A stretch of 64,000 nt of DNA from a virus (taxonomy: Duplodnaviria > Heunggongvirae > Uroviricota > Caudoviricetes). The notes under the pieces were generated by a model that was not told where the DNA came from, did not search any database, and saw only the letters and a program-made list of their open reading frames with translations. Positions 41,179-45,987 of this stretch are shown here, in pieces. Position 1 is the first letter of the stretch, and the number at the start of each line of letters is the position of its first letter. The stretch is taken from the IMG/VR virus record IMGVR_UViG_2574180019_000006, one strand, 5' to 3'. The position numbers and the translations under genes are program-made.

Positions 41179-41465
41179 GCAATTTAACTTCTTGGGAATG
41201 GTGGTTGGCCACCTATTTCTTAGCGGCCGGAGTCGCATTCGCCTTTTACGTAGGTCAGTTAGTCGTAAAACTGTTGCTGATTAAATTTGCTAGTCATAAA
41301 CGTATCGATGATGGTCTGTGGCGTCTTGGCACCCTGGTGGAAACTCGCTACGGGCAACTTAAGGAGAACGAAACCATTACTATCCAAGCGAAACGATTCA
41401 CTGCCACCATTACAAGAACACCTAGTCGTAGAGTGGCCTTGATCAAAAAAGTCACAACCGAATAA
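41175..41465 (+). CDS. Membrane protein, hypothetical
   Basis: 96 aa with N-terminal TM helix; start overlaps previous stop. Confidence 0.4.
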   Translation: MSNLTSWEWWLATYFLAAGVAFAFYVGQLVVKLLLIKFASHKRIDDGLWRLGTLVETRYGQLKENETITIQAKRFTATITRTPSRRVALIKKVTTE

Positions 41466-42241
41466 AAACATATTGATAAGTATTTACTTACTTATCTTTT
41501 GTGTATAAGATGACTTTGTTTTCGTTGAGACGCGACTGTTTGAACTTAAATACAAGTGCAAACGAAGAAGTCTATCTGGCAGTAGCCTAATAAGCCAAAC
41601 ACCAGCGAGGTCAGTTTCCAGCCTCGTTACCGAAATGGGACACACTGAGCGAGTGTGATTGCAGAACGCAGGAGGGAACATGAATGTTCCCTCCGATGAA
41701 GTAACAGAATGGGCGGTTGGTATATTTTCAACTCCATATGACTCCCGGATTCTTAGCCACTGACCGCCCATCCTGTTACGTCATTTTGTTCAATTATGTC
41801 GTTTATACTGGGTTAAAAAGCGGCGACGTAGCCCGGCTGGTATGGTTAGCCAGCACACAACGTTGAGGCCATTACATTTTTATCAATTCTAAGGTTCTAT
41901 TCACAGAGATACCGGCGAGCGTTGATATGTAACATGTTGGGCAAACATTCAATCGGAGTAGTGGCCTCAACGTTGTGAAGACAGGATTGTTGTGTAGGTT
42001 TAACCACTGTTGCCATTGGTGCCTGTTTTCACAACAAATGATTCCATACATCACATTGTATAAATTACAAAGTAGGTGCTGTCCTCAGAAACATCATCTA
42101 CTTAAAGATTTAGCCTTCTATTGAGCGAAGTCGAAAACGTCTGGCACTAACGAAAAGTGCAAGTAGCGGTGCGTTTCCTGGCAGAAACTAACACCGCCGC
42201 GATTGGCACTGTTGAGTAATAAATACTGTCAGTGCTGAATT

Positions 42242-42316
42242 GATGGTGTAGCTCAGCGGTAGAGCAGTTGGCTGTTAACCAACTGGTCGGTGGTTCGAAT
42301 CCACCCACCATCGCCA
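42242..42316 (+). tRNA. tRNA-Asn (anticodon GTT)
   Basis: Complete cloverleaf folded by hand: 7-bp acceptor GATGGTG/CACCATC, D-stem GCTC/GAGC, anticodon stem GTTGG/CCAAC with loop CTGTTAA, T-arm GGTGG-TTCGAAT-CCACC, encoded CCA. Confidence 0.85.
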
Positions 42317-42318
42317 AT

Positions 42319-42394
42319 GCCGGTTTAGCTCAGTTGGTAGAGCGCCTGCCTTGTAAGCAGGATGTCAGCGGTTCGATCCCGTTAACCGGCACCA
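42319..42394 (+). tRNA. tRNA-Thr (anticodon TGT)
   Basis: Cloverleaf: acceptor GCCGGTT/AACCGGC, D-arm GCTC-AGTTGGTA-GAGC, anticodon stem CCTGC/GCAGG with loop CTTGTAA, T-loop TTCGATC, encoded CCA; 2 nt after tRNA-Asn. Confidence 0.85.
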
Positions 42395-42714
42395 ACACAA
42401 CAGGTAAGAGCATTGGGCGAATCGGCGATACTGACCCACAAGGCCGTAAATCGATAGAGTCAGACCAGTGCTCTTACCGTTGTGAGGAAGTGCAGCTCTT
42501 TGAAGCAACCAGAAGATAAGCATCTGGCTTCACAACACAACGATAAGATCATTACGGTTAATCGTCGTTCATGTGCACAATGACTGGTCGAAAGGTAGTG
42601 ATCTTACCGTTGTGATGAATGCACAGGCTGATGTGCCGCAACTACAGTAGTGCGCGCTTTGCGGGGCTTGCTACAACCCTGTGTCGGAGTTCAGCACCGA
42701 CCATCACAATAGCT

Positions 42715-42801
42715 GGAGAGTAGGGAGCATGGTGCTCAAGCGGTCTTGAAAACCGTCCCATTGCGCAAGCGATGATGGTTCGATTCCATTACTCTCCGCC
42801 A
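42715..42801 (+). tRNA. Probable type II tRNA-Ser (anticodon TGA) with long variable arm
   Basis: Acceptor GGAGAGT/ACTCTCC, anticodon stem GCGGT/ACCGT with loop CTTGAAA, long variable region, T-loop TTCGATT, encoded CCA; D-arm is atypical so the call is tentative. Confidence 0.45.
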
Positions 42802-42956
42802 GACACAGCGTTGAGCGGTTTGGCCTTTTAATCAACTCGATTAAGACTCCGCTAACATAAACCAGACCGCTCAACGCTGTGATAGACAATTACGGCAGAC
42901 GTTCTTAACCATAGCTTGCTAACATCCTAGCAACACTTTTTTCAGCGCAAAATCCA

Positions 42957-42978
42957 AAGGGGCTTCGGCCCCTTTTTT
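42957..42978 (+). terminator. Rho-independent terminator closing the tRNA island
   Basis: GGGGC-ttcg-GCCCC followed by TTTTTT; lies 3 bp from the stop of the convergent minus-strand gene. Confidence 0.7.
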
Positions 42979-42980
42979 GG

Positions 42981-43871
42981 TTACTGATTATCTAGGTATG
43001 CTGTTAACTCATTTTTAATGATCAGTGAATATTCTAAAATCTCACCTAGTAAATACTCTGCTTTTTTAAAATGCCACCCCATAGAGCCTAATTTTTCTGA
43101 AGGTCTTTCTAACAACATTATAATATCGCTGTCTTGCTCTTTGGCAATGTATTGTCTTATTTCTCTCTCCCAATTATTTCTTGTCTTTCCACTTATTGAT
43201 GATTCATCCAAAACTTTGTTTATAAACTTTTCCGTGTCGGCGAACTTTCCTGCATTATGCACAATTGTATGTCTTAGCAACTCAATTAGAGTGATCTCGA
43301 AACGATAGTTTTTACCTATCTTGTTATTTATTTCTACGTCTCTGAAATTGGGTAATTTTCTTCTAAATACTTTCAGGAATGTTTTTAGTGATTTATTTTT
43401 TATCGCCTCGTAATAGGTTTCCATAGCTCCATTTTTATCAATCTGAACCTTTGGAAATTCACTAGGTGACCAAAAATGGTAATGTATGCTCACTGTATGG
43501 GCATATATTTTCTTAATATAATCTTCAAACAATTCAAAAGCTTCAGTTATAACCCATTGATATTGTTTGTTTTTTAACGCTTCGCATAATTTTATCTTCT
43601 CTGAGATATCTATTGTGCTATGCCCAATTCCAAATGTTGAACCTGTATATGGATTTGAGCATGTATGGTTTGTTAACGTTGTCCCGCATGTTATTGGGGG
43701 GGTATTATTAGCATCTAGAGTTTGTGCGTTTTCAAGTGTATGCTTAAATCGCTTTATGTTGTCTTTCGTTGTAACATTTATATGACCTAACAAGTCACAA
43801 CGCAAAATTATTTCGTTTCTTAATTCAGTGAATATGTTTTCAACAAAAGAACCTAGCGGGTTTTCAATCAT
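42981..43871 (-). CDS. Low-GC orphan protein, HEPN-like (possible abortive-infection/defence protein)
   Basis: 296-aa minus-strand ORF, markedly AT-rich versus neighbours; contains an Rx4H motif (LLRHTIVHNAG) of the kind found in HEPN/Abi-type RNases. Family assignment is tentative. Confidence 0.4.
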   Translation of the reverse strand: MIENPLGSFVENIFTELRNEIILRCDLLGHINVTTKDNIKRFKHTLENAQTLDANNTPPITCGTTLTNHTCSNPYTGSTFGIGHSTIDISEKIKLCEALKNKQYQWVITEAFELFEDYIKKIYAHTVSIHYHFWSPSEFPKVQIDKNGAMETYYEAIKNKSLKTFLKVFRRKLPNFRDVEINNKIGKNYRFEITLIELLRHTIVHNAGKFADTEKFINKVLDESSISGKTRNNWEREIRQYIAKEQDSDIIMLLERPSEKLGSMGWHFKKAEYLLGEILEYSLIIKNELTAYLDNQ

Positions 43872-44046
43872 CTAAACCTCAACGAAAATCTTACCTATAA
43901 GACAGTCCTTAATGTAATCTATTTTCTCCACTACTTCAAATTACCTCACAATCTACCGATAGGTGACTACCTACTTACATACAAAGTTGATTTATAGTAT
44001 AGTCCCTCTGTTGCGTATTAGTATTTTTAAAGGCATTTGTTAAGTT

Positions 44047-44292
44047 ATGACGATCACTATCTACGGACGAGATAACTGCTCATACTGCAAACGTGCGGTC
44101 GAGCTGGCGAAGCAACTAAAGGGACATGGCTACGGTGATTATGAGTACATCGACATCACCACTGCCGGTATCGACAAGGAAAAACTAAGTGAAATTGTTG
44201 GTAAACCGGTAGAGACTATCCCCCAGGTGCTGATCGATGGCCAGCCGATTGGCGGATACACAGAACTGGCTGCATACGTCAGCACCCTCTGA
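44047..44292 (+). CDS. Glutaredoxin/NrdH-like redoxin
   Basis: 81 aa with active site CSYC in a thioredoxin-fold context (TIYGRDNCSYCKRA ... IPQVLIDGQPIGGY). Confidence 0.8.
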   Translation: MTITIYGRDNCSYCKRAVELAKQLKGHGYGDYEYIDITTAGIDKEKLSEIVGKPVETIPQVLIDGQPIGGYTELAAYVSTL

Positions 44293-44298
44293 TTTTAA

Positions 44299-44321
44299 CG
44301 GCTCACAGGAGCCGTTTTTAT
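44299..44321 (+). terminator. Rho-independent terminator
   Basis: ACGGCTC-acag-GAGCCGT followed by TTTTT. Confidence 0.6.
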
Positions 44322-44502
44322 TCCCACCAAACTCACTCCCATTTCCCTTAAAATTCAAAAAACAACGTCAAAATGATTCCATACCTACTATGTATGGAAT
44401 CATTGCTGAAAATGAGTTACTTTTACTCTTGATCCTATAAGAATCTATGCCTAATATACTGTTTACTTATACAGTACATCGGCGTAACTCGGTGATTGTC
44501 AT

Positions 44503-45606
44503 ATGAAAAATAGCTTTGACAGAGCACGCGCTGCGGAGAACACCTCAAAAGAGGCGATAGAGTATCTCGAAAGAGCATCTCAAATGCAGGCCGTTATGAT
44601 CTCGCAGGTTAGCAATGACATGAGATTCTCGGACGCATTCATGTTATTCACTCGCTTATCTCTGCTGATAACCAGACGTCGGCCAGAGATCGCTGTTCAT
44701 TGTATTTTGATACATGTTTTGCCGCACATTGCCGATGTAAAAGTAAGTGACATTAATAGGTTCATGGTGAACCAACTGGTCAACCCACTAATACTGGATG
44801 GCAAAATTGTTATGGGCCGCCGCGTTTTCTCTCTGATGAAGCAGTTCCTTAGCTGGTGCGCCTTCCAGGGGATGATAGACGTGTCACCGTTAAACGATAT
44901 GTCACTTAACAAAGTTGCCGGTGGCGCAAAGCCCACACCTCGCGAGCGGAAGCTGACCGACGCAGAGGTATGGGTGTTCTGGAATATATGGGACTACTTC
45001 AATGTGTGCGCTGGTACAAAATGGGCGGCCAGGCTGTGTCTTGTATCAGCAAGACGACCTGACGAAGTACTGCGGGCTAAAAAAAGTGAGTTCAATCTTA
45101 AGCGTGGAGTTTGGAATCAAGGCAAGAGAAACAAGTCAGCACGTGAGCATTCGCTGCCTTTAAGCACATTAATGCGCACATGTATTGAAGAGTTGTTCGA
45201 ATACGGTAAAGGCAGCCAGTGGCTCGTGCCTTCGAATAAAAAAATCGGGAAAGACCTTCCTATGTCTAAAGTGGCAATAGCCCAGGCATTACGTCGTATT
45301 CTGGAACGACCAGAACTGATGGAGCTTGAGCCATTTACACCCCGAGACTTGCGCCGTACTGCGCGTAGTTACTTCCCAGCTTTAGGCATAAGCCAGGAGG
45401 TATCACGCAAAATCATGAACCACAGTCTTGAGGGGATAGATCGAGTCTACGACCGGCACGATTATATGGACGAGATGCGAGACGCCTTAGAAAGTTTCTC
45501 GACGTACATCGCATCAATCGTAGAGCAACCGGATTTAGACGAAATTGACCACAAATTCAAGGGAGATCGTCTATCAACAGAGCTTATTCGTGTAAATTTT
45601 TCATAG
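44503..45606 (+). CDS. Tyrosine recombinase/integrase
   Basis: C-terminal catalytic-domain signatures of phage integrases (ARRPDEV, PRDLRRTARS, VYDRHDY); true start codon uncertain. Confidence 0.7.
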   Translation: MKNSFDRARAAENTSKEAIEYLERASQMQAVMISQVSNDMRFSDAFMLFTRLSLLITRRRPEIAVHCILIHVLPHIADVKVSDINRFMVNQLVNPLILDGKIVMGRRVFSLMKQFLSWCAFQGMIDVSPLNDMSLNKVAGGAKPTPRERKLTDAEVWVFWNIWDYFNVCAGTKWAARLCLVSARRPDEVLRAKKSEFNLKRGVWNQGKRNKSAREHSLPLSTLMRTCIEELFEYGKGSQWLVPSNKKIGKDLPMSKVAIAQALRRILERPELMELEPFTPRDLRRTARSYFPALGISQEVSRKIMNHSLEGIDRVYDRHDYMDEMRDALESFSTYIASIVEQPDLDEIDHKFKGDRLSTELIRVNFS

Positions 45607-45987
45607 AGACTTTATGGCCTCAACAACCTTTTGTGATGCGCCTTTCTCTTTACCGAATCGCTCGTTATATGCAGCAAGAACCTGTTTTTCGTCCTCGTTA
45701 AGAGGAGCGGTGCCTTCTTTGTATAAAAATGCTGCGAGTTCAGGTTGGCGTTCTTCCAGCACCATCATCATAAGACGACTTGGCTCAATACCCAGCGCCA
45801 GCGCCAACGGACGAACCTTATCGATAGGCAAAGGAATTTTGCCACTTTTAATTAAAGAAAGGTTGTTGGCATTTTTATAACCAATAAGTCTGGCTATTTG
45901 GGCCTGACTCATAGGTGAGGATTCAATCAGCCCTGCGATAAAAGCAGCATAGCGACTTTCTATAAATTCAATCTTGTTGTCAGACAT
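45601..45987 (-). CDS. XRE-family helix-turn-helix transcriptional regulator (candidate phage repressor)
   Basis: 128 aa; HTH segment SQAQIARLIGYKNANNLSLIKSGK; divergent from downstream genes; an imperfect palindrome GGTAAGTGCTTACC lies in its upstream region. Confidence 0.6.
   Translation of the reverse strand: MSDNKIEFIESRYAAFIAGLIESSPMSQAQIARLIGYKNANNLSLIKSGKIPLPIDKVRPLALALGIEPSRLMMMVLEERQPELAAFLYKEGTAPLNEDEKQVLAAYNERFGKEKGASQKVVEAIKSL

What the first reader, a model, noticed from the sequence alone, without database searches (positions are those of the whole stretch)
42981..43871. Low-GC, oppositely oriented orphan gene with an Rx4H (HEPN-like) motif in the tRNA/integrase hotspot
This 296-aa gene is one of very few minus-strand genes, is conspicuously AT-rich relative to its neighbours, and is wedged between the tRNA island and the glutaredoxin/integrase genes, a classic location for horizontally acquired cargo. 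It contains an Rx4H motif (LLRHTIVHN) like the catalytic motif of HEPN RNases found in abortive-infection and toxin proteins. It could be a phage-plasmid-encoded defence or exclusion gene and appears to act alone, as no partner gene is adjacent.
Basis: inference. Interest (0 to 1): 0.6.

Follow-up and report, generated by a model that had tools for sequence, protein, structure and literature searches.

The report
Uncatalogued solo HEPN gene on phage-plasmid
A small AT-rich gene cassette in a plasmid-like E. coli virus encodes a previously uncatalogued member of the HEPN family of RNA-cutting enzymes that works without a partner gene and most likely acts as a suicide or exclusion weapon against competing viruses, an interesting but not surprising addition to a well-known class.

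The parts
42981..43871 (-). CDS of 296 aa, predicted solo HEPN-superfamily RNase. Layout in the model: N-terminal long helix 6-52, beta-hairpin 65-87, helix 89-129, insert 130-188, helix 189-206, C-terminal helices.
43257..43274 (-). Codons for R200-H-T-I-V-H205, the predicted catalytic Rx4H motif.
   Evidence: R200 and H205 in 141/141, H201 in 139/141, V204 in 140/141, G208 in 140/141. The motif sits at the C-terminal end of helix 189-206 in the model.
43533..43535 (-). Codon for E113, the invariant acidic residue in the long helix that precedes the motif helix. It lies within the family signature N-[KR]-Q-Y-Q-W-L-L-x-E-A-Y-E-x-F-E-D.
   Evidence: E113 in 141/141, W106 in 138/141, N101 in 134/141.
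42980..44046 (.). The swappable cassette: the gene plus its own 175-bp upstream region.
   Evidence: Against Cyrano (98% backbone identity), homology stops at 42979 and resumes at 44047. Against CMS-2020a, the gene is 68% and the upstream region 66% identical, while tRNA-Ser is 100%, the terminator spacer 98%, glutaredoxin 94% (nt) and the integrase 100% (aa).
42956..42975 (.). GC-rich hairpin (GGGGC-TTCG-GCCCC core) flanked by A and T runs. It is a probable bidirectional terminator belonging to the conserved backbone, 5 nt beyond the gene's stop codon.
   Evidence: Terminator scan. The minus-strand RNA folds at -18.6 kcal/mol, z = -2.3. It lies within the 98%-conserved spacer.
43877..43880 (-). 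Shine-Dalgarno GAGG, 5 nt upstream of the ATG.
   Evidence: Read directly from the sequence. Conserved as GAGG in the E. coli alleles.
43911..43939 (-). Promoter-like element: TTGAAG (43939-43934), 17-nt spacer, TACATT (43916-43911). This is inferred.
   Evidence: TTGAA is invariant, and a TAnAnT lies 17 nt downstream at the same alignment position in the 5 divergent alleles. It was not found by the stricter consensus scan.
43960..43973 (.). 14-bp palindrome TAGGTGACTACCTA, one copy of a phage-plasmid-wide motif TARGT-N4-ACYTA. Candidate operator or activator site in the divergent gene/glutaredoxin control region.
   Evidence: Conserved as a palindrome in the E. coli, Klebsiella and Citrobacter alleles. 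There are 9 exact sites in the window against 0.12 expected. Among the 29 loci held, it occurs only in SSU5-like loci.

Best explanation
[not shown]
Confidence: 0.55

Rival explanations
1. It is the toxin of an addiction (toxin-antitoxin) module that stabilises the phage-plasmid. Its antitoxin would be something not recognised here, such as a small RNA, a very short or overlapping ORF, or a backbone-encoded factor.
Against: No ORF of 35 aa or more recurs next to the gene in 18 loci. Rfam finds only tRNAs in 41400-44600. Backbones that are 98-99% identical do without the gene (Cyrano) or carry a 59%-identical allele, which argues against an essential maintenance role. HepS shows that a solo HEPN needs no antitoxin.
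Confidence: 0.12
2. It is a phage-side weapon expressed as part of the phage-plasmid's own transcription programme. It could be an RNase for host shut-off, for degrading competitors' transcripts during lytic growth, or for countering host immunity, rather than a lysogen-protecting defence.
For: The cassette's upstream region carries a copy of the palindrome TARGT-N4-ACYTA. That motif marks 8 other sites in the window, 7 of them intergenic and upstream of gene blocks (9 sites against 0.12 expected), and it is specific to SSU5-like loci. This wires the gene into the element's regulation. The palindrome is retained in the Klebsiella and Citrobacter alleles despite different neighbours.
Against: The gene points against the flow of nearly all phage genes and ends at its own terminator, which is the usual layout of lysogeny-expressed morons. 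Homologues in chromosomes and on conjugative elements sit in defence or TA islands with no phage programme around them and lack the palindrome. The palindrome may serve the divergent glutaredoxin promoter instead.
Confidence: 0.12
3. It is a helical-bundle protein that is not an RNase. One option is a metal-binding enzyme or sensor using H201, H205 (one helical turn apart) and E113 as ligands. Another is a HEPN-derived regulator like MtlR/YggD.
Against: The invariant Arg five residues before the invariant His, the polar residue after it, and its position at the helix end fit the HEPN active site specifically. Non-catalytic HEPN derivatives typically lose the Rx4-6H motif. No metal-binding bundle family ranks above the HEPN hits.
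Confidence: 0.1

Closest known systems
HepS (STM14_3211) of the Salmonella Gifsy-1 prophage, a solo HEPN abortive-infection anticodon nuclease (PMC13043305)
Minimal HEPN toxins of MNT-HEPN (HepT/MntA, type VII TA) modules and related stand-alone HEPN domains (HI0074, AF0298, SO_3166, TT1696)
   Different: They are about 120-140 aa and are encoded next to a nucleotidyltransferase antitoxin. This protein is twice as long. No MNT gene lies next to it in any of the 18 loci. There is no Pfam PF05168, PF01934 or PF08780 match.
RnlA/LsoA (RNase LS) HEPN toxins
   Same: They carry the same RHxxxH form of the motif (RnlA R318-H-S-L-F-H323), plus an essential upstream Glu that positions the His. They also have an anti-phage role on mobile elements.
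   Different: RnlA has two TBP-like N-terminal domains and a dedicated antitoxin, RnlB. The profile-profile comparison is not significant (E=0.21). RnlA's R255 equivalent is not conserved in this family.
Single-protein HEPN Abi families (AbiD/AbiD1/AbiF = Pfam Abi_2, AbiJ, AbiU2, AbiV, ApeA), as listed in Anantharaman et al. 2013 and in PADLOC
   Same: These are one-gene abortive-infection effectors built on a HEPN domain with extra sensor-like regions, carried on plasmids and prophages. The size range of about 300 aa, stated from my own knowledge, is similar to AbiD/AbiF.
   Different: No member of this family reaches even E=1 against those Pfam or PADLOC models. Its signature (NKQYQWLLxEAYExFED ... 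RHxIVHxxG) is its own.

Membership tests
HEPN superfamily | Conserved Rx4-6H motif | tested here: met
   R200 and H205 are present in 141/141 aligned family members.
HEPN superfamily | [quoted passage not shown] | tested here: met
   Position 201 is H in 139 members and N in 2 of 141. The criterion is quoted.
HEPN superfamily | The motif lies at the end of core helix-3 and the start of the loop to helix-4 | tested here: met
   In the AF2 model (pLDDT 93), helix 189-206 ends with R200..H205. The loop 207-212 follows, with G208 in 140/141.
HEPN superfamily | A second conserved acidic residue upstream, in helix-2 | tested here: met
   E113 is invariant (141/141) in helix 89-129. E116 is in 125/141 and E180 in 130/141.
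HEPN superfamily | The acidic residue typically occurs as an Ex3[KR] motif | tested here: not met
   A basic residue four positions after E113 occurs in 12/141, after E116 in 26/141, and after E180 in 44/141. The 2013 paper describes this feature as typical, not obligatory.
HEPN superfamily | [quoted passage not shown] | tested here: met
   Residues 130-188 form three short helices between the two long core helices.
HEPN superfamily | Four-helix up-down core superimposable on solved HEPN domains | tested here: met
HEPN superfamily | Significant profile match to an established HEPN family (the 2013 study used HHpred probabilities of 75-98%) | tested here: inconclusive
   hmmscan of the protein, its 141 relatives and the consensus finds no HEPN-clan family. 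hhalign against the RnlA family gave E=0.21. Against RnlA alone, the RHxxxH motifs align but E=0.6. A full HHpred search against Pfam and the PDB was not available.
HEPN superfamily | Metal-independent endoRNase activity, with dimerisation juxtaposing two Rx4-6H motifs | not testable with these tools
   This needs biochemistry, or at least a multimer prediction.
HepT/MntA (type VII TA) | Adjacent minimal nucleotidyltransferase antitoxin gene | tested here: not met
   There is no recurrent neighbour within 2 kb in 18 loci. No NTP_transf_2 gene is called within 3.8 kb of the family gene in the 10 annotated contexts.
RnlA/LsoA | TBP-like N-terminal domains (PF19417/PF19034), RnlA_toxin HEPN domain (PF15935) and an RnlB/Dmd-type antitoxin | tested here: not met
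   There are no such Pfam hits. The model's N-terminus is a single long helix plus a hairpin. No downstream antitoxin ORF is present.
Abi_2 (AbiD/AbiF), AbiJ, AbiU2, AbiV, ApeA and other PADLOC/Pfam defence HEPN families | Match to the family's profile HMM | tested here: not met
   PADLOC-DB v2.0.0 returns 0 families for the protein and for the family consensus. The Pfam scan of 141 members shows none of these families among the 25 most-matched families listed.
HepS family | Stand-alone HEPN protein under 250 aa with the motif near residue 100, tetrameric, activated by the siphovirus tail-tip protein J | tested here: not met
   This family is about 290 aa with the motif at residue 200. No sequence match to any PDB chain was found. 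Oligomeric state and trigger were not testable. The solo, prophage-borne architecture is shared.

The most novel reading that the evidence does not exclude
The gene could be a trigger-activated tRNA anticodon nuclease that the phage-plasmid uses under its own regulatory circuit, via the TAAGTA-N2-TACTTA palindrome shared with its other promoters. The element's neighbouring tRNA-Asn/Thr/Ser genes would then supply cleavage-resistant or replacement tRNAs. In that case the phage-plasmid would survive, or even exploit, the translational arrest that kills competitors. This would be a self-immune RNase-plus-tRNA offensive module rather than a classical altruistic Abi.
Probability: 0.07. Interest if true: 0.75.

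Novelty: new member of a known kind. Interest (0 to 1): 0.45.

Why it matters
SSU5-like phage-plasmids are common in clinical E. coli, Klebsiella, Salmonella and Shigella, and they are increasingly recognised as carriers of resistance and defence genes. This cassette is invisible to the Pfam, NCBIfam and PADLOC libraries used here, and every record examined annotates it as 'hypothetical protein'. Showing that it is a HEPN RNase with a solo architecture would add a new family, with at least 346 sequence clusters from Enterobacterales to Burkholderiales and Flavobacteriia, to the short list of one-gene abortive-infection effectors. It would also give a second, structurally distinct system beside HepS for asking how a partner-less toxic RNase is kept silent and what switches it on. 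Finally, it would define a precise cargo slot (terminator hairpin to glutaredoxin ATG) in which these elements exchange weapons.

Tried and rejected
- **Shallow structure prediction:** AF2 with the 7-sequence alignment gave pLDDT 40 and was unusable. It was replaced by the 141-sequence alignment.
- **Foldseek:** searches against the PDB and BFVD found nothing significant. afdb50 was not installed.
- **PDB sequence search:** searches with the shallow and deep profiles returned only chance hits, CmlS and SNAP-25.
- **Family consensus scans:** the consensus scanned against Pfam and PADLOC gave nothing.
- **hhalign against RnlA:** neither RnlA alone nor an RnlA-family profile gave a significant match. 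The tempting pairing of [K/R]177-x2-E180 with RnlA R255-x2-E258 was rejected, because position 177 is basic in only 39/141 members.
- **Antitoxin or partner search:** all-against-all comparison of neighbouring ORFs of 35 aa or more found none. Rfam found none.
- **Functional link to the adjacent tRNA genes:** considered and not adopted. The tRNAs are backbone features present in Cyrano, which lacks the gene.
- **Chance ORF:** rejected, given hundreds of homologues with constrained positions.

Full report
**1. Observation**

The ORF at 42981-43871 on the minus strand is real. It starts with ATG and encodes 296 aa. Its GC content is 0.327 against 0.464 for the whole window. Local 400-nt windows fall to 0.31-0.34, while the flanks are 0.43-0.50.

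ARAGORN finds tRNA-Asn(GTT), tRNA-Thr(TGT) and tRNA-Ser(TGA) at 42242-42801 on the plus strand. A glutaredoxin (44047-44292) and a tyrosine integrase (44503-45606) follow the gene. Only 7 of 56 non-overlapping ORFs of 90 aa or more are on the minus strand.

The window is an SSU5-like phage-plasmid of E. coli. Its closest relatives are Escherichia phages CMS-2020a and Cyrano. Homologues of the protein occur on 58 non-mobilizable plasmids, those listed about 105-126 kb long, from Escherichia (29), Klebsiella (27), Citrobacter (1) and Pseudomonas (1).

The peptide LLRHTIVHN is present, with R200 and H205. The motif by itself carries no weight: 33% of residue shuffles of this protein contain an Rx4H, and 71% contain an Rx4-6H.

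**2. The family**

The curated libraries do not recognise the protein. Pfam, NCBIfam and PADLOC-DB give nothing. PHROGs matches phrog_35492 (E=5e-113), a family of unknown function.

A word-indexed search found only six close clusters. The exhaustive HMMER search of 1.84 billion cluster representatives found 346 proteins at E<=1e-3 and 241 at E<=1e-10, nearly all about 280-310 aa. Where sources give a name, it is 'hypothetical protein'. The named hosts include E. coli, Enterobacter, Proteus, Burkholderia, Paraburkholderia, Comamonas, Flavobacterium and several uncultured lineages.

I aligned 141 full-length members, which outside the phage-plasmids are 18-35% identical to the query. Three positions are invariant: E113, R200 and H205. 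At 90% or more are N101, W106, Y112, Y123, W134, E180, N183, H201 (139/141, the other two N), V204 and G208. The family signature is N-[KR]-Q-Y-Q-W-L-L-x-E-A-Y-E-x-F-E-D ... R-H-x-I-V-H-x-x-G.

**3. Fold**

AlphaFold2 with the seven close sequences failed (pLDDT 40). With the 141-sequence alignment it gave pLDDT 93 and pTM 0.90. The model has these elements:
- a long helix, 6-52
- a beta-hairpin, 65-87
- a long helix, 89-129, which carries E113
- an insert of three short helices, 130-188
- a helix, 189-206, ending in R200-H-T-I-V-H205
- a loop containing G208
- further helices, and a C-terminal helix at 270-295

Anantharaman et al. 2013 (PMC3710099) describe the HEPN domain by five features:
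- an Rx4-6H motif
- a polar N, D or H right after the R
- a conserved acidic residue in helix-2
- a frequent insert between helices 2 and 3

All five map onto this model and alignment. The typical Ex3[KR] form of the acidic motif is not conserved.

Several tests argue for caution:
- Foldseek against the PDB and BFVD found nothing significant.
- The afdb50 library was unavailable.
- A family profile found no HEPN chain among PDB sequences.
- A Pfam scan of all 141 members and of the family consensus found no recurrent family.
- hhalign against E. coli RnlA placed RHTIVH exactly on RnlA's catalytic R318-HSLF-H323, but with E=0.6.
- hhalign against a 59-sequence RnlA-family profile gave E=0.21.

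I conclude, with about 80% confidence, that this is a new family of the HEPN superfamily. The conclusion rests on structure, motif geometry and conservation rather than on profile statistics.

**4. A discrete, swappable cassette**

Against Cyrano, whose backbone is 98% identical, homology ends at 42979, just past a GC-rich hairpin at 42956-42975. It resumes exactly at 44047, the glutaredoxin ATG. In between, Cyrano carries a plus-strand gene of the Gp49/Sf6-gp66 family.

Against CMS-2020a, whose backbone is 99% identical, identity by segment is as follows:

| Segment | Identity |
|---|---|
| tRNA-Ser | 100% (nt) |
| Spacer with hairpin | 97.8% (nt) |
| Gene | 68.3% (nt), 59% (aa) |
| 175-bp upstream region | 66.3% (nt) |
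| Glutaredoxin | 94.3% (nt) |
| Integrase | 100% (aa) |

The unit that is exchanged is therefore 42980-44046: the gene plus its own control region.

The hairpin is flanked by A and T runs and folds at -18.6 kcal/mol on the gene's strand. It is a probable bidirectional terminator supplied by the backbone.

Upstream of the gene there is a GAGG Shine-Dalgarno 5 nt before the ATG. There is also a promoter-like TTGAAG-17-TACATT, whose position is conserved across five divergent alleles.

**5. Solo architecture and context**

I compared all ORFs of 35 aa or more within 2 kb of the gene, all against all, in 18 loci. The only recurrent neighbour outside the syntenic phage-plasmid backbones was a tyrosine integrase, in 4 loci. 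There is no candidate antitoxin, and Rfam finds only tRNAs around the gene.

In 10 independent non-phage-plasmid contexts the neighbours within 6 kb were:
- ABC-3C components, RelB, a HigB-like/HTH pair and an integrase, in B. pseudomallei
- a colicin DNase with its immunity genes, in Proteus
- PIN/Phd, an MmeI-type RM enzyme and DarT
- TacAT, IS21, ParB and an integrase
- a GAP1/DO-GTPase/GASH/GAAD system and an integrase
- SIR2 and Mrr
- nSTAND and GmrSD
- conjugation genes
- two uninformative neighbourhoods

The gene's GC is below that of its flanks in all 13 loci measured, by 7 to 25 points. In the phage-plasmids, the adjacent slot between glutaredoxin and integrase is empty in the window. 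In CMS-2020a and in a Citrobacter plasmid it holds a YafO-family toxin with a 202-aa upstream ORF.

This is the signature of a mobile, one-gene conflict module.

**6. Mechanism**

The best-supported mechanism is a metal-independent HEPN endoribonuclease. R200, H201 and H205 would be catalytic, E113 would assist, and the active site would probably be completed by dimerisation as in other HEPN enzymes (established knowledge: PMC3710099, PMC8266594).

The protein has no partner, so it is probably inactive at rest and activated by a component of an invader.

The closest functional precedent is HepS of the Gifsy-1 prophage. HepS is a solo HEPN protein, non-toxic when overexpressed, that rests as a closed tetramer. 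Binding of a siphovirus tail-tip protein opens it, and it then cleaves tRNA-Thr and other tRNAs in the anticodon loop (PMC13043305). HepS itself is a different family: under 250 aa, with the motif at residues 100-105.

RNase activity, target, trigger and phenotype are all inferred here. None is shown.

**7. Rival readings**

- **Addiction toxin with an unseen antitoxin (0.12).** The absence of any conserved neighbour, and the dispensability of the gene in near-identical backbones, argue against it.
- **Phage-programme weapon (0.12).** The palindrome described in section 8 suggests it. The gene's moron-like layout and the defence-island contexts of homologues that lack the palindrome argue against it.
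- **Non-RNase helical bundle, such as a metal site or a regulator (0.10).** The specific R-polar-x3-H geometry, and the tendency of non-catalytic HEPN derivatives to lose the motif, argue against it.

**8. Side finding**

The cassette's upstream region contains the palindrome TAGGTGACTACCTA (43960-43973). It is conserved as a palindrome in the E. coli, Klebsiella and Citrobacter alleles.

The degenerate form TARGT-N4-ACYTA, with consensus (G)TAAGTA-N2-TACTTA(C), has 9 exact matches in the window against 0.12 expected. None of 100 shuffles exceeded 2. Eight of the nine sites are intergenic, mostly just upstream of gene blocks. Among the 29 loci held, the motif occurs only in SSU5-like ones.

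It looks like the operator or activator site of a phage-plasmid regulator. Its presence in the cassette suggests that the gene, or the divergent glutaredoxin, is wired into that circuit.

**9. Novelty and score**

The HEPN superfamily and one-gene HEPN abortive-infection effectors are well known. This is a new, uncurated family within that kind, so I rate it 'new member of a known kind'.

A specialist would find it useful rather than startling. It is a clean, testable candidate defence gene on clinically common phage-plasmids, and a second solo-HEPN architecture for studying activation.

Interest: 0.45.

Noticed in passing
window 2229, 7724, 21157, 27374, 34531, 41477, 43960, 48676, 58577 (14 bp each): The palindrome TARGT-N4-ACYTA, consensus (G)TAAGTA-N2-TACTTA(C), has 9 exact sites against 0.12 expected by chance. 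Eight of the nine are intergenic, mostly 18-90 nt upstream of ORF starts and often next to -10-like hexamers. Among the 29 loci held, it occurs only in SSU5-like phage-plasmid loci (E. coli, Klebsiella, Citrobacter). It is probably the operator or activator site of a phage-plasmid regulator, for example the 128-aa HTH protein encoded at 45601-45987.
   Followed up: partly
window 44271-44353; L001 4785-5663; L002 5788-6971; L023 451-1479: There is a second variable slot between glutaredoxin and the integrase. It is empty (83 bp) in the window. Cyrano has a 184-aa minus-strand ORF of unknown family there. CMS-2020a and a Citrobacter plasmid have a 202-aa ORF plus a YafO-family toxin (PF13957, E=5e-22).
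   Followed up: partly
window 42401-42699: A segment of about 300 bp between tRNA-Thr and tRNA-Ser is absent from Cyrano, where the two tRNAs are 8 nt apart, and aligns poorly with CMS-2020a (38%). Rfam finds nothing significant in it. It could be a remnant of another insertion or a degraded tRNA.
   Followed up: partly
window 42242-42801: The tRNA-Asn/Thr (and Ser) cluster is 86-88% identical to the tRNA cluster of P1, P7 and D6, which are phage-plasmids of a different group. According to the literature, the solo HEPN nuclease HepS cleaves tRNA-Thr(TGT) among others. Whether phage-plasmid tRNAs buffer against such nucleases was not tested.
   Followed up: no
window 42704-42889 (-); L001 3867-4079: A 61-aa minus-strand ORF overlaps tRNA-Ser. 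Its counterpart is annotated as a hypothetical protein (CYRAN_40) in phage Cyrano. It is probably an annotation artefact.
   Followed up: no
L023 5718-8894 (Citrobacter plasmid NZ_CP056836.1): An arsRDAB arsenic-resistance operon sits about 0.8 kb downstream of the family gene in a Citrobacter SSU5-like plasmid. The same region therefore also collects resistance cargo.
   Followed up: no
L026 5424-5990; L027 1924-2457; L028 3467-4759: In three distant loci a same-strand gene ends 11-76 nt upstream of the family gene: a 188-aa protein of unknown family, a faint Mrr_cat hit, and an nSTAND1 ATPase. These three are unrelated to each other. Lineage-specific two-gene arrangements cannot be excluded.
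   Followed up: partly
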